64,000 nucleotides of DNA, from NCBI RefSeq assembly GCF_009914755.1, contig NC_060925.1. One strand, written 5' to 3'. Position numbers and translations under genes: made by a program. Below, one piece after another: positions 18,664 to 41,900 of this stretch. Position 1 is the first letter of the stretch; each line of letters starts with the position of its first letter. This DNA is from the human T2T-CHM13v2.0 reference genome, Homo sapiens. The notes beneath the pieces were generated by a model. That model saw nothing but the letters and a program-made list of their open reading frames with translations. It did not search any database and was not told where the DNA came from.

Positions 18664-21600
18664 TTTTTTTACTTTTTAATTATTATATTTTAAGTTCTAG
18701 GGTACATGTGCACAACATGCAGGTTTGTTACATATGTATACATGTGCCATATTGGTGTGCTGCACCCATTAACTCATCATTTACATTAGGTATATCTCCT
18801 AATGCTATCCCTCCCCCCTCCCCCCACCCCACAACAGGCCCCTGTGTGTGATGTTCCCCTTCCTCTGTCCATGTGTTCTCATTGTTCAATTCCCACCTAT
18901 GAGTGAGAACATGCGGTGTCTAGTTTTTTGTCCTTGTGATAGTTTGCTGAGAATGATAGTTTCCAGCTTCATCCATGTCCCTACAAAGGACATGAACTCA
19001 TCATTTTTTATGGCTGCATACTGTTCCATGGTGTATATGTGCCATATTTTCTTAATCCAGTCTATCATTGATGGACTTTTGGGTTGGTTCAAGTCTTTGA
19101 TAATGTGAATAGTGCTGCAATAAACATACGTGTGCATGTGCCTTTATAGTAGCATGATTTATAATCCTTTGGGTATACACCCAGTAATGGGATGGTTGGG
19201 TCAAATGGTGTTTCCAGTTCTAGATCCTTGAAGAATCACCACACAGTCTTCCACAATGGTTGAACTAGTTTACAGTCCCACCAACAGTGTAAAAGAATTC
19301 CTATTTCTCCACATCCTCTCCAGCACCTGTTGTTTCCTGACTTTTTAATGATTTCCATTCTAACTGGTATGAGATGGTATCTCATTGTGGTTTTGATTTG
19401 CATTTCTCTGATGGCCAGTGATGATGAGCAGTTTTTCATGTGTCTTTTGACTGCATAAATGTCTTCTTTTGAGCAGTGTCTATTCATATCCTTCTCCCAC
19501 TTTTTGATGGGGATGTTTTTCTTGTAAATTTGTTTGAGTTCTTTGTAGATTCTGGATATTAGCCCTTTGTCAGATGAGTAGATTGCAAAAATTTTTTCCC
19601 ATTCTGTAGGTTGCCTGTTCACTCTGATGATAGTTTCTTTTGTTGTGCAGAGGCTCTTTAGTTTAATTAGATCCCATTTGTCAATTTTGTCTTTTGTTGC
19701 CATTGCTTTTGGTGCTTTAGACATGAAGTCCTTACCCATGCCTATGTCCTGAATGGTAATGCCTAGGTTTTCCTTTAGGGTTTTTATGGCTTTAGGTCTA
19801 ACATTTAAGTCTTTGATCCATCTTGAATTAATTTTTATATAACGTGAAAGGAAGGGATCCAGTTTCAGCTTTCTACATATGTCTAGCCAGTTTTCCCAGC
19901 TCCATTTATTAAATAGGGAATCCTTTCCCCATTTCCTGCTTTTGTCTGGTTTGTCAAAGAACAGATGGTTGTAGATGTGTGGTATTATTTCTGAGGGCTC
20001 TGTTCTGTGCCATTGGTCTCTATCTCTGTTTTGGTAACAGTACCATGCTGTTTTGGTTACTGTAGCCTTGTAGTATAGTTTGAAGTCAAGTAGCGTGATG
20101 CCTCCAGCTTTGTTCTTTTGGCTTAGGATTGACTTGGCAATGAGGGCTCTTTTTTTGGTTCCATATGAACGCTAAAGTAGTTTTTTTCCAATTCTGTGAA
20201 GAAAGGCATTGGTAGCTTGATGGGGATGGCATTGAATCTATAAATTACCTTGGGCAGTATGGCCATTTTCACGATCTTGATTCTTCCTATCCATGAGCAT
20301 GGAATTTTCTTCCATTTGTTTGAGTCCTCTTTTATTTTGTTGAGAAGTGGTTTGTAGTTCTCCTTGAAGAAGTCCTTCACATCCCTTGTAAGTTGGATTC
20401 CCAGGTATTTTATTCTCTTTGAAACAATTGTGAATGGGAGTTCACTCATGATTTGGCTCTCTGTTTGTCTGTTATTGGTGTATAAGAATGCTTGTGATTT
20501 TTGCACTTTGCTTTTGTATCCTGAGACTTTGCTGAATTTGCCTATCAGCTTAAGGAGATTTTGGGCTGAGATGATGGGGTTTTCTAGATATACAATCATG
20601 TCATCTGGAAACAGGGACAATTTGACTTCCTCTTTTCCTAATTGAATACCCTTTATTTCCTTCTCCTGCCTGATTGACCTGGCCAGAACTTCCAACACTA
20701 CGTTGAATAGGAGTGGTGAGAGAGGGCATCCCTGTCTTGTGCCAGTTTTCAAAGGGAATGCTTCCAGTTTTTGCCCATTCAGTATGATATTGGCTGTGGG
20801 TTTGTCATAGATCGTTATTATTATTTTGAGATACATCCCATCAATACCTAATTTATTAAGAGTTTTTAGCATGAAGCGCTGTTGAATTTTGTCAAAGGCC
20901 TTTTCTGCATCTATTGAGATAATCATATGTTTTTTGTCTTTGGTTCTCTTTATATGCTGCATTACATTTATTGATTTGCATATGTTGATCCAGCCTTGCA
21001 TCCAGGGAAGAAGCCCTCTTGATCATGGTGGATAAGCTTTTTGATGTGTTGCTGGATTTGGTTTGCCAGTATTTTATTAAGGATTTTTGCATGGATTTTC
21101 ATCAGGGATGTTGGTCTAAAATTCTCTTTTTCTGTTGTGTCTCTGCCAGGCTTTGGTATCAGCATGATGCTGACCTCATAAAATGAGTTAGGGAGGATTC
21201 CCTTTTTTTCTATTGATTGGAATAATTTCAGAAGGATTGGTACCAGCTCCTCCTTGTGCCTCTGGTAGAATTCGGTTGTGAATCTGTCTGGTCCTGGACT
21301 TTTTTTGGTTGGTAAGCTATTAATTATTGCCTCAATTTCAGAGTCTGTTATTGGTCTATTCAGGGATTCAACTTCTTCCTGGTTTAGTCTTGGGATGGTG
21401 TATGTGTCCAGGAATTTATCCATTTCTTTTAGATTTTCTAGTTTATTTGCATAGAAGTGTTTATAGTATTCTCTGATTGTAGTTTGTATTTCTGTGGGAT
21501 CAGTGATGATATCCCCTTTATCATTTTTTATTGCATCTATCTCTTTCTTCTTTTTTAGTCTTGCTAGCAGTCTGTTAATTTTGTTGATCTTTTCAGAAAC

Positions 21601-38980: not shown

Positions 38981-41900
38981 ATGACAGGATCAAATTCACA
39001 CATAACAATATTAACCTTAAAAGTAAATGGGCCAAATGCTCCAATTCAAAGACACAGACTGGCAAATTGGATAAAGTGTCAAGACCCATAAGTGTGCTGT
39101 ATTCAGGAAACCCATCTCACGTGCAGAGACACACATAGGCTCAAAATAAAGGAAAGGAGGAATATCTACCAAGGAAATGGAAAACAAAAAAAGGCAGGGG
39201 TTGCAATCCTAGTCTCTGATAAAACAGACTTTAAACCAACAAAGATCAAAAGAGACAAAGAAGGCCATTACATAATGGTAAAGGGATCAATTCAATAAGA
39301 AGAGCTAACTATCCTAAATATATATGCACGCAGTATAGGAGCACCCAGATTCATAAAGCAAGTTCTTAGAGACCTACAAAGAGACTTAGACTCCCACACA
39401 ATATTAATGGGAGACTTTAACACCCCACTGTCAACATTATACAGATCCACGAGACAAAGTTAACAAGGTTATCCAGGAATTGAATTCAGCTCTGCACCAA
39501 GTGGACCTAATAAACATCTACAGAACTCTCCACCCCAAATCAACAGAGTATACATTCTTCTCAGCACCACACCGCACCTATTCCAAAAGTGACCACATAG
39601 TTGGAAGTAAAGCACTCCTCAGCAAATGTAAAAGAACAGAAATTATAACAAAGTGTCTCTCAGATCACAGTGAAATCAAACTAGAACTTAGGATTAAGAA
39701 ACTCACTCAGTACCACTCTGCTACATGGAAACTGAACAACCTGCTCCTGCGTGACTACTGGGTACATAACAAAACGAAAGCAGAAATAAAGATGTTCTTT
39801 GAAACCAATGAGAACAAAGACACAACATACCAGAATCTCTGAGACACATTTAAAGCACTGGGTAGAGGGAAATTTATAGCACTAAATGCCCACAAGAGAA
39901 AGCAGGAAGATCTAAAATTGACACCCTAACATCACAATTATAAGAACTAGAGAAGCAAGAGCAAACACATTCAAATCTAGCAGAAGGCAAGAAATAACTA
40001 AGATCAGAGCAGAACTGAAGGAGATAGAGACACCAAAAACCCTTCAAAAAAACCAATGAATCCAGGAGCTGGTTTTTTGAAAAGATCAACAAAATTAATA
40101 GACGACTAGCAAGACTAATAAAGAAGAAAAGAGAAGAATCAAACAGATGCGACAAAAAATGATAAAGGGGATATCACCACCGATCCCACAGAAACTACCA
40201 TCAGAGAATACTATAAACACCTCTACGCAAAAAGACTAGAAAGTCTAGAAGAAATGGATAAATTCGTCGACACATACACTATCCCAAGACTAAACAAGGA
40301 AGAAGTTGAATCTCTGAATAGACCAATAACAGGCTCTGAAATTGAGGCAATAATTAATAGCTTACCAACCAAAAAAAGTCCAGGACCAGACAGATTCACA
40401 GCCGAATTCTACCAGAGGCACAAGGAGGAGCTGGTACCAATCCTTCTGAAATTATTCCAATCAATAGAAAAAAAGGGAATCCTCCCTAACTCATTTTATG
40501 AGGTCAGCATCATGCTGATACCAAAGCCTGGCAGAGACACAACAGAAAAAGAGAATTTTAGACCAACATCCCTGATGAACATCCATGCAAAAATCCTCAA
40601 TAAAATACTGGCAAACCAAATCCAGCAACACATCAAAAAGCTTATCCACCATGATCAAGAGGGCTTCTTCCCTGGGATGCAAGGCTGGATCAACATATGC
40701 AAATCAATAAATGTAATGCAGCATATAAAGAGAACCAAAGATAAAAAACATATGATTATCTCAATAGATGCAGAAAAGGCCTTTGACAAAATTCAACAGC
40801 CCTTCATGCTAAAAACTCTTAATAAATTAGGTATTGGTGGGATGTATCTCAAAGTAATCATAACGATCTATGACAAACCCACAGCCAATATCATACTGAA
40901 TGGGCAAAAATTTGAAGCATTCCCTTTGAAAACTGGCACAAGACAGGGATGCCCTCTCTCACCACTCCTATTCAACATAGTGTTGGAAGTTCTGGCCAGG
41001 GCAATTAGGCAGGAGAAAGAAATAAAGGGTATTCAAACAGGAAAAGAGGGAATCAAATTGTCCCTGTTTGCAGATGACATGATTGTATATCTAGAAAAGC
41101 CCATCGTCTCAGCCCAAAATCTCTTTAAGCTGATAAGCAACTTCAGCAAAGTCTCAGGATACAAAATCAATGTGCAAAAATCACAAGCATTCTTATACAC
41201 CAATAACAGACAAACAGAGAGCCAAATCATGAATGAACTCCCATTCACAATTGCTTCAAAGAGAGTAAAATACCTAGGAATCCAACTTACAAGGGATGTG
41301 AAGGACCTCTTCAAGGAGAACTACAAACCACCGCTCAACAAAATAAAAGAGGACACAAACAAATGGAAGAACATTCCATGCTCAGGGATAGGAAGAATTA
41401 ATATTGTGAAAATGGCCATACTGCCCAAGGTAATTTATAGATTCAGTGGCATCCCCATCAAGCTACCAATGACTTTCTTCACAGAATTGGAAAAAACTAC
41501 TTTAGCTTTCATATGGAACTAAAAAAGAGCCCACATTGCCAAGTCAATCCTAAGCCAAAAGAGCAAAGCTGGAGGCATCACGCTACCTGACTTCACACTA
41601 TACTACAAGGCTACAGCAACCAAAACAGCATGGTACTGTTACCAAAACAGAGTTAGAGACCAATGGAACAGAATACAGCACTCAGAAATAATACCACATA
41701 TCAACAACTATCTGATCTTTGACAAATCTGAAAAAAACAAGAAATGGGGAAAGGATTCCCTATTTAACAAAGGGTGATGGGAAAACTGGCTAGCCATATG
41801 TAGAAAGCTGAAACTGGATCCCTTCCTTACACCTTATACAAAAATTAATTCAAGATGGATTAAAGACTTAAATGTTAGACCTAAAACCATAAAAACCAAA

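What the first reader, a model, noticed from the sequence alone, without database searches (positions are those of the whole stretch)
20810..40870. Ectopic gene-conversion tract between two inverted L1PA copies ~19 kb apart
Seen: the reverse complement of 20810-21355 and 40320-40870 differ at only about 10 positions in ~550 bp (hand alignment), while adjacent parts of the same two L1s are clearly more divergent (e.g. IQLGKEEV vs IQTGKEGI). In the tract both carry the same ~15 amino-acid changes relative to the L1 ORF2 consensus as I recall it: QRHK (Y>H), VPIL (F>I), EKKG (E>K), YEVSIM (A>V, I>M), TTEK, RPTS, IHAK (D>H), DQEGFF (V>E, I>F), GWIN, NVMQHIK, KDKKH and IT for RA. Most are not CpG changes and several lie in conserved RT motifs, so they look like post-insertion decay that was copied rather than the sequence of an active shared parent. 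Both elements keep matched TSDs and the host L1MA resumes colinearly, so there is no net inversion. Inference: non-allelic gene conversion (or an inversion that flipped back), old enough for about 2% re-divergence.
Basis: partly seen in the sequence, partly recalled or inferred. Interest (0 to 1): 0.85.

Follow-up and report, generated by a model that had tools for sequence, protein, structure and literature searches.

The report
Gene conversion between two neighbouring L1s
Two decayed L1 retrotransposons lying in opposite orientation about 19 kb apart on human chromosome 1 share a half-kilobase patch that one copied from the other by gene conversion; it is a clean example of a process that is already known.

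Summary
Copy A (18663-22464, a 5'-inverted L1) and copy B (36900-43013, a full-length L1) are independent insertions, each with its own target-site duplication. They are about 91-94% alike outside one patch, B 40402-40910 = A 21275-20768, where they differ at only 7 of 508 aligned bases plus one 1-bp indel. Compared with 28 other L1 copies from the same genome, this patch holds 21 derived variants common to A and B and only 4 private to each. The rest of the shared 3.1 kb holds 16 shared and 121/126 private variants (Fisher p = 6e-16). A 34-mer carrying four of the shared variants occurs only in A and B in the 3.1-Gb assembly. The family-typical version of that 34-mer occurs 7,551 times. Seventeen of the 21 shared changes alter the protein and 2 are at CpG sites, as expected for neutral decay. 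The best reading is a single non-crossover, non-allelic gene conversion of about 0.45-0.5 kb, long after both insertions and without net inversion. The donor cannot be identified without ape orthologues. This is a new instance of a known process, and its interest is modest.

The parts
18648..18662 (.). Left target-site duplication of copy A
   Evidence: A 15-base match with one mismatch to 22465-22479.
18663..21604 (-). Copy A, 3' arm (X). It runs from the reverse-transcriptase part of L1 ORF2 through the 3' end, with a short poly(A) seen as a T run at 18663-18670.
   Evidence: Aligns with B 40068-43008 in inverted orientation and with full-length L1 copies elsewhere. Translation.
20768..21275 (-). 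Conversion tract in copy A at its maximal extent. The minimal extent is 20813-21258.
   Evidence: Bounded by the A/B differences at B 40401 and 40911. It holds 21 shared derived variants.
21606..22464 (+). Copy A, inverted 5' arm (Y), equivalent to B 38607-39462. It is joined to X at 21604/21606 with the microhomology AGC. The 605 bases between Y and X (B 39463-40067) are absent.
   Evidence: Both arms lie inside one pair of target-site duplications.
22465..22479 (.). Right target-site duplication of copy A
36886..36899 (.). Left target-site duplication of copy B
   Evidence: A 14-base match with one mismatch to 43014-43027, of which 11 bases are a perfect match.
36900..43013 (+). Copy B, a full-length L1 of about 6.1 kb with a short A-rich tail. 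It is decayed: the longest stop-free stretch is 466 codons.
   Evidence: Colinear with full-length L1 copies from their 5' ends. Open frames.
40402..40910 (+). Conversion tract in copy B at its maximal extent. The minimal extent is 40419-40865. It covers ORF2p residues about 484-632 by PDB 8uw3 numbering.
43014..43027 (.). Right target-site duplication of copy B
17727..23368 (+). Older L1 remnant into which copy A inserted. Its two halves are consistent with being colinear across A.
   Evidence: Weak matches at 71-85% identity: 17727-18212, 22486-22578 and 23204-23368 match B 40585-41101, 41557-41649 and 42261-42424 in direct orientation. The colinearity is extrapolated from these hits.

Best explanation
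This is a single non-crossover, non-allelic (ectopic) gene conversion between two independently inserted L1 elements in inverted orientation on the same chromosome. A break in one copy was repaired using the homologous stretch of the other, about 19 kb away. About 0.45-0.5 kb of the acceptor was overwritten with the donor's sequence, including the donor's own post-insertion mutations. No crossover followed, so the DNA between the copies was not inverted. Shown here: the two copies are independent insertions, the tract is bounded, private mutations were transferred, those mutations are unique in the genome, and there is no net inversion. Inferred: the repair mechanism (synthesis-dependent strand annealing or a similar pathway), the germline setting and the date. 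Not known: which copy was the donor.
For: Independent origin: each copy has its own matched target-site duplication. A is 5'-inverted and lacks 605 bases, while B is full length.

Bounded tract: A and B differ at 1.38% (7 of 508) in B 40402-40910. They differ at 9.0%, 5.7% and 9.2% in the three other regions. In those regions A-B is close to A-reference and B-reference. In the tract A-reference is 6.3% (minimum 5.5%), B-reference is 6.7% (minimum 5.7%), and the least divergent of 55 reference pairs is 2.36% (11 clean references).

Transfer of private mutations: against the majority state of 28 other L1 copies, the tract (501 callable columns) has 21 shared-derived, 4 A-private and 4 B-private variants. 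Outside it (3141 callable columns) there are 16, 121 and 126, giving Fisher p = 6e-16. With substitutions only the table is 21/7 versus 16/215, p = 2e-15. The shared rate inside the tract (4.19%) matches the private rates outside it (3.85% and 4.01%).

The event came late: private substitutions in the tract number 3 and 4, against 16.6 and 17.7 expected (P = 6e-5 and 1e-4). The tract is therefore much younger than either insertion.

Uniqueness: 20 of the 21 shared variants are carried by at most 3 of 28 references. The A/B 34-mer at B 40718-40751 occurs, with up to 1 mismatch, at 2 places in 3.1 Gb, and both are A and B. The family-typical 34-mer occurs at 7,551 places. In sub-tracts 40405-40520 and 40540-40700, A is 100% and 98% identical and the best of 38 other scored copies is 96%.

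Neutral character: 17 of the 21 shared changes are nonsynonymous. Two are at CpG sites, and the transition:transversion count of 10:11 does not differ from the private sets.

Contrast: two shared variants outside the tract (39330, 39333) behave as a true lineage signature, because at least 39 unlinked copies match that stretch at 97-99%.
Against: No orthologous sequence from another species or another human assembly could be consulted. The ancestral state, the donor and the date therefore rest on one assembly.

The references were chosen by similarity to B's tract (28 of the 38 non-self copies scored, out of 7,257 candidates). They are not perfectly matched to the A/B lineage.

Only one 34-base stretch was searched exhaustively. 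The other sub-tracts were judged from the best 40 of 2,329-2,540 candidates.

The 3' edge is patchy. Three B-private variants (40837, 40854, 40859) lie between shared variants. This needs either discontinuous repair or later clustered mutation.

A few isolated shared rare variants lie outside the tract (40097, 40281, 41505/6, 41639, 41656) and are unexplained.
Confidence: 0.9

Rival explanations
1. Shared source: both copies were made from the same unusual L1 source lineage, and the variants are a subfamily signature.
For: A and B do share some lineage variants that the 28 references lack. The stretch holding 39330/39333 is matched at 97-99% by at least 39 other copies.
Against: The rare shared variants are confined to about 0.5 kb of the 3.8 kb shared. 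The 34-mer carrying four of them occurs only in A and B, against 7,551 places for the common form. No other scored copy exceeds 96% in the sub-tracts. 17 of 21 changes are nonsynonymous. Private variants are depleted in the tract, which a shared source does not explain.
Confidence: 0.02
2. Assembly or polishing artefact: reads from one copy were used to correct the other in this assembly.
For: Only one assembly was available, and no reads could be examined.
Against: Seven substitutions and one indel still separate the copies inside the tract. Each copy lies in unique flanks with its own target-site duplication. From general knowledge of the long-read data behind this assembly, not tested here, the elements (3.8 and 6.1 kb) are shorter than typical long reads.
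Confidence: 0.02
3. Chimera at birth: during the insertion of one copy, reverse transcription switched onto RNA of the neighbouring copy and back.
For: Copy A was made by an irregular insertion event (5' inversion, 605-base gap). The tract starts about 330 bases from the inversion junction.
Against: The tract is far younger than either insertion. There are 3-4 private substitutions per copy against about 17 expected. A chimera made at insertion would carry a full load of private changes in the newer copy.
Confidence: 0.01
4. Inversion and re-inversion: two crossovers between the inverted copies, with mismatch correction of heteroduplex DNA at the exchange points leaving the homogenised patch.
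For: Inverted L1 pairs about 20 kb apart do mediate polymorphic inversions in humans. HsInv0341 has L1PA3 repeats and a 20.8-kb inversion (PMC3961182, passages read). The present orientation shows no net inversion, which an even number of flips would also give.
Against: Two crossovers at different points would exchange segments, not make them alike, so conversion is still needed to explain the pattern. One non-crossover event is simpler. Outside the tract the copies are 91-94% alike and the longest identical run is 178 bases, a poor substrate for crossover (my judgement from general knowledge).
Confidence: 0.04
5. RNA- or cDNA-templated repair: a transcript of the full-length copy B, or its cDNA, templated repair of a break in A.
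For: B is full length with its 5' end present. cDNA-mediated conversion is reported for yeast Ty and Tf2 elements, as cited in PMC6598467 (passages read).
Against: Nothing in the sequence separates this from DNA-templated repair. The partners lie 19 kb apart in a 3.1-Gb genome, which points to proximity on DNA. The donor is not known to be B.
Confidence: 0.02

Closest known systems
Non-allelic gene conversion between neighbouring Alu elements in primates (work of Aleshin and Zhi, as cited in PMC6598467 and PMC8230782; passages read)
   Same: Dispersed retroelement copies of independent origin exchange short patches. Non-diagnostic (private) mutations are shared between neighbours. The effect is strongest for copies within roughly 10 kb on the same chromosome.
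   Different: Here the partners are L1 elements. The tract (about 0.45-0.5 kb) is longer than a whole Alu. The spacing (about 19 kb between tracts, 14.4 kb between element ends) is beyond the stated ~10 kb range. The repeats are inverted.
Inverted-repeat-mediated polymorphic inversions, for example HsInv0341 with L1PA3 repeats (PMC3961182; passages read)
   Same: A pair of inverted L1 copies flanks about 20 kb. Homologous recombination between them is the underlying process.
   Different: No inversion is present here, since the target-site duplications remain paired. The outcome is a non-crossover patch. Overall repeat identity is about 92%, far lower than I would expect for a pair of young L1PA3 copies (my expectation; the repeat identity of HsInv0341 was not checked in the paper).
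Gene conversion among LTR elements on the human Y chromosome (Trombetta et al. 2016, as cited in PMC6598467; passage read)
   Same: Mosaic identity between paralogous retroelement sequences caused by ectopic conversion.
   Different: That evidence came from polymorphism within a population. Here there is a single fixed-looking tract in one assembly.
Twin priming, the model for 5'-inverted L1 insertions
   Same: Copy A has an inverted 5' segment abutting the 3' segment, one pair of target-site duplications around both, and a 3-base microhomology at the junction.
   Different: This concerns only how copy A was born, not the conversion. The 605-base gap between the segments is larger than I recall as typical.

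Membership tests
Non-allelic (ectopic, interlocus) gene conversion, non-crossover | Two paralogous sequences at different loci, of independent origin | tested here: met
   Each has its own target-site duplications and a different structure: A is 5'-inverted and B is full length.
Non-allelic (ectopic, interlocus) gene conversion, non-crossover | A bounded tract much more alike than its flanks, beyond chance and beyond family-wide rate variation | tested here: met
   A-B divergence is 1.38% in the tract against 5.7-9.2% elsewhere. In the tract A-reference is 6.3% and B-reference 6.7%. None of 10,000 shuffles reached the observed segment score.
Non-allelic (ectopic, interlocus) gene conversion, non-crossover | Derived variants private to the pair inside the tract, with each copy's own private variants depleted there | tested here: met
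   21 shared against 8 private inside; 16 shared against 247 private outside. The 34-mer is unique to the pair among about 7,553 places. Private variants are depleted in the tract.
Non-allelic (ectopic, interlocus) gene conversion, non-crossover | Flanking markers not exchanged (no crossover) | tested here: met
   The target-site duplications remain paired around each copy. The older L1 around A is consistent with colinearity.
Non-allelic (ectopic, interlocus) gene conversion, non-crossover | Tract length in the mammalian range (a few hundred bases, rarely above 1 kb; PMC3961182, passage read) | tested here: met
   447 to 509 bases.
Non-allelic (ectopic, interlocus) gene conversion, non-crossover | Orthologue in an outgroup shows the unconverted state of the acceptor | not testable with these tools
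   Only this one human assembly can be searched.
Inversion by homologous recombination between inverted repeats | Target-site duplications swapped between the two repeats and the intervening DNA inverted | tested here: not met
   The duplications are paired within each copy.
5'-inverted L1 insertion (twin priming), copy A only | Inverted 5' segment next to the 3' segment, one pair of target-site duplications, poly(A) at the 3' end, microhomology at the junction | tested here: met
   The poly(A) is only 8 bases long.
   No repeat-family library is on hand. What is shown is a primate-type L1: ORF2 matches human ORF2p residues 384-850 with E = 5e-272, and each copy has about 3.3-4% private divergence.

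The most novel reading that the evidence does not exclude
The inverted L1 pair may be a live recombination substrate. In this reading the half-kilobase patch is the footprint of repeated exchange, and the 14-kb interval between the copies (22465-36899) flips, or has flipped, between orientations in humans or other apes. The patch itself now provides the best stretch of identity for further exchange.
Probability: 0.07. Interest if true: 0.5.

Novelty: new member of a known kind. Interest (0 to 1): 0.3.

Why it matters
This is a well-resolved natural example of ectopic gene conversion between old L1 copies, with clear tract limits and 21 co-transferred private mutations. Such events make parts of a repeat look younger or differently related than they are. 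That matters for dating repeats by divergence and for using them as phylogenetic markers. It also shows that inverted L1 copies about 19 kb apart and only about 92% alike can still interact. It does not reveal a new mechanism, and no gene or annotated functional element is involved.

Tried and rejected
Donor direction. I looked for sites where A and B differ and both states are common among the references (57 sites). The references did not fall into two groups. Many of these sites are C/T or G/A changes, probably recurrent CpG decay (my inference; their context was not checked). No donor could be called. Divergence in the tract (4.19% shared plus 0.80% private) fits either copy's flank rate.

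Identity gradient outside the tract (about 94% near it, about 90% further 3'). I considered older or larger conversion tracts. I rejected them because unrelated L1 pairs show the same regional pattern (reference-reference medians 4.6% and 6.2%) and there is no excess of shared variants there. A first version of this comparison with all 20 extended references was distorted by references that carry insertions or truncations, and the script stopped at the last window. It was redone with 11 clean references.

PRDM9-type 13-mer. There is one match in the whole window, at 18813-18825, about 2 kb from the tract. This is chance level, since 44 of 100 shuffles gave at least one match.

Transition:transversion ratio of the shared variants (10:11). 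It looked odd but does not differ from the private sets (59:45 and 62:49; p = 0.5).

Earlier findings of this scan were not open to the session.

Literature. Four searches were aimed at the phenomenon, not at this locus. They listed no paper on this locus, so I cannot say whether it is in print.
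Full report
**What is there**

The window holds two L1 elements in opposite orientation.

- Copy A spans 18663-22464. Its 3' arm (18663-21604, minus strand) runs from the reverse-transcriptase part of ORF2 to the 3' end and a short poly(A).
- A second piece of A (21606-22464, plus strand) is an inverted 5' segment. 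The two pieces meet with a 3-base microhomology, and 605 bases of L1 sequence that should lie between them are missing.
- Both pieces sit inside one pair of 15-base target-site duplications, 18648-18662 and 22465-22479, with one mismatch. This structure therefore dates from the insertion itself. It fits what I recall as twin priming.
- A lies inside an older, plus-oriented L1 remnant. Its weak matches on either side are consistent with colinearity.
- Copy B spans 36900-43013 and is a full-length L1 of about 6.1 kb. It is colinear with full-length copies elsewhere from their 5' ends. Its own duplications are 36886-36899 and 43014-43027 (14 bases with one mismatch, 11 of them perfect).
- Neither copy is intact. 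The longest stop-free stretch in B is 466 codons, and A has a frameshift inside the tract.

**The observation**

A 18665-21604 matches the reverse complement of B 40068-43008 at 92.1%. In 200-column windows identity is 96.5-99.5% for windows starting at B 40262-40762. It is 93-95% for windows starting at 40862-41462, 84.5-93% further 3', and 81.5-89.5% at the 5' end.

The quoted peptides are present.

Column shuffling of the pairwise alignment gave 0 of 10,000 shuffles at or above the observed best segment score. It gave 4 of 10,000 at or above the longest identical run of 178 bases.

**Is the tract special, or does L1 simply vary less there?**

I searched the whole assembly with B 40320-40870. 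A was 98% identical, and the best of the 38 other scored copies were 93-95% (40 scored of 7,257 candidates). I took 28 of these 38 as references: 20 were re-fetched at about 6.7 kb and 8 were used as 3.5-kb loci. The ten hits without loci were not fetched.

For pairwise distances I used 11 clean references. I dropped 8 that carry insertions, truncations or rearrangements and one near-duplicate (L037). The results are:

| Region (B coordinates) | A-B | A-reference (median) | B-reference (median) | Reference-reference (median) |
|---|---|---|---|---|
| 40068-40401 | 9.0% | 9.4% | 7.2% | 5.6% |
| 40402-40910 (tract) | 1.38% (7 of 508) | 6.3% (min 5.5%) | 6.7% (min 5.7%) | 3.9% (min 2.36% of 55 pairs) |
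| 40911-41560 | 5.7% | 5.4% | 6.0% | 4.6% |
| 41561-43008 | 9.2% | 7.6% | 8.3% | 6.2% |

Outside the tract the A-B distance is what any two copies show. The apparent gradient beyond the tract is a family-wide feature, not a second event.

**Three-way test**

Each column was classified against the majority state of the 28 references. Columns with fewer than 10 references were left out. Columns with a majority under 70% were set aside as ambiguous (8 inside the tract, 177 outside).

| | Callable columns | Shared-derived | A-private | B-private |
|---|---|---|---|---|
| Tract | 501 | 21 | 4 | 4 |
| Rest of the shared sequence (38607-39462, 40068-40401, 40911-43008) | 3141 | 16 | 121 | 126 |

- Fisher's exact test gives p = 6e-16.
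- The private counts include 17 and 15 indel columns. With substitutions only the table is 21/7 against 16/215, p = 2e-15.
- The shared rate inside the tract (4.19%) equals the private rates outside it (3.85% and 4.01%).
- Private substitutions inside are 3 and 4 where 16.6 and 17.7 are expected.

This is the pattern expected if one copy's accumulated private mutations were written onto the other late in their history.

**Not a subfamily signature**

- Twenty of the 21 shared variants are carried by at most 3 of the 28 references, and ten by none.
- The 34-mer at B 40718-40751 spans four of them. With up to one mismatch it occurs at two places in the 3.1-Gb assembly, and these are A and B. The family-typical 34-mer, taken from locus L041, occurs with the same tolerance at 7,551 places. 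The search therefore does see L1 copies.
- For sub-tracts 40405-40520 and 40540-40700, A is 100% and 98% identical and the best other scored copies are 96% (40 scored of 2,540 and 2,329 candidates).
- As a contrast, the shared pair 39330/39333 outside the tract lies in a stretch matched at 97-99% by at least 39 unlinked copies. That is what a lineage variant looks like. It also shows that my references are not perfectly matched to the A/B lineage.

**Nature of the shared changes**

Seventeen of the 21 are nonsynonymous. By PDB numbering they are Y484H, F491I, E502K, A512V, I515M, K526E, I533T, D539H, V564E, I567F, F574I, I583M, N587K, N593K, T625M, R631I and A632T. This fits neutral decay: against an expected 75% nonsynonymous, p = 0.62.

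It fits purifying selection poorly. Against an assumed 45% nonsynonymous, a figure I chose from memory, p = 8e-4. Two of the 21 are at CpG sites, and the transition:transversion count is 10:11, not different from the private sets.

**No inversion**

Crossing over between inverted repeats would leave each repeat flanked by one duplication of each pair. Here the pairs are intact. An inversion followed by re-inversion at another point would exchange segments rather than make them alike. Conversion is therefore needed in any case, and one non-crossover event is the simplest account.

A chimera formed at insertion is excluded by the depletion of private changes in the tract.

**Date (inference)**

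Seven substitutions in 508 bases is 0.69% per copy, about 16% of the tract's total divergence from the family majority. With mutation rates recalled from memory the estimates are:

| Rate per site per year | Estimate | Poisson 95% limits |
|---|---|---|
| 1e-9 | about 7 Myr | 2.8-14 Myr |
| 1.7e-9 | about 4 Myr | 1.6-8.4 Myr |
| 0.5e-9 | about 14 Myr | 5.5-28.4 Myr |

The event falls late in the residence time of both elements.

**Open points**

- The donor is not identified. Sites where A and B differ and the references are split did not define two lineages.
- The 3' edge is patchy. B-private variants at 40837, 40854 and 40859 lie among shared ones, and six changes fall within 29 bases of B.
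- A few isolated shared rare variants outside the tract remain unexplained: 40097, 40281, 41505/6, 41639 and 41656.
- No recombination motif lies near the tract.

**Comparison with what is known**

- Non-allelic gene conversion among retroelements is established. Reviews describe it for Alu, strongest within about 10 kb, and for LTRs (PMC6598467 and PMC8230782, passages read; PMC8232201, passages).
- A preprint on human L1 variation lists gene conversion among the processes that blur old L1 histories (PMC13192797, passage).
- Inverted L1 pairs about 20 kb apart mediate polymorphic inversions. The same paper states that mammalian conversion tracts are usually a few hundred bases and rarely above 1 kb (PMC3961182, passages).

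The present case fits that frame in tract length and geometry. It is a new instance, not a new kind. I did not search for this locus by coordinate, so I cannot say whether it has been described.

Noticed in passing
window 21604-21606 and 21606-22464: Copy A is a 5'-inverted L1. The inverted piece equals B 38607-39462 and joins the 3' arm with the microhomology AGC. The 605 bases between them are missing, which is larger than I recall as usual for twin priming.
   Followed up: partly
window 40837-40865: Six departures from the family majority fall within 29 bases of copy B. Only the last three (40861, 40863, 40865) are shared with A. This could be discontinuous repair or a local mutation cluster.
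   Followed up: no
window 39330 and 39333: Two variants are shared by A and B and absent from all 28 references, but the stretch is matched at 97-99% by at least 39 unlinked copies. This is a true lineage variant, and it shows the reference set is not fully lineage-matched.
   Followed up: yes
window 40097, 40281, 41505-41506, 41639, 41656: These are isolated shared rare variants outside the tract, interleaved with private ones. For 41597-41666, A is the best match in the genome (97%) but many copies reach 96%. They may be micro-tracts, lineage variants or parallel changes.
   Followed up: partly
window 40122-41522: Copy B keeps a stop-free stretch of 466 codons across the reverse-transcriptase region despite about 4% decay. 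Elsewhere its frames are broken, and the other stop-free stretches are at most 228 codons.
   Followed up: partly
L036 and L037 (contig C23, about 118.56 and 118.42 Mb): Two L1 copies in opposite orientation about 140 kb apart are almost identical at the 53 polymorphic sites shown (the short loci L008 and L009 at the same two places; one of them has gaps at two columns). They probably belong to a large inverted duplication.
   Followed up: no
window 18813-18825: The only match in the window to the 13-base recombination-hotspot motif lies in the G-rich 3' part of copy A. It is chance level.
   Followed up: yes
window 17727-18647 and 22480-23368: An older, plus-oriented L1 remnant (71-85% identical to copy B) hosts copy A.
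   Followed up: partly
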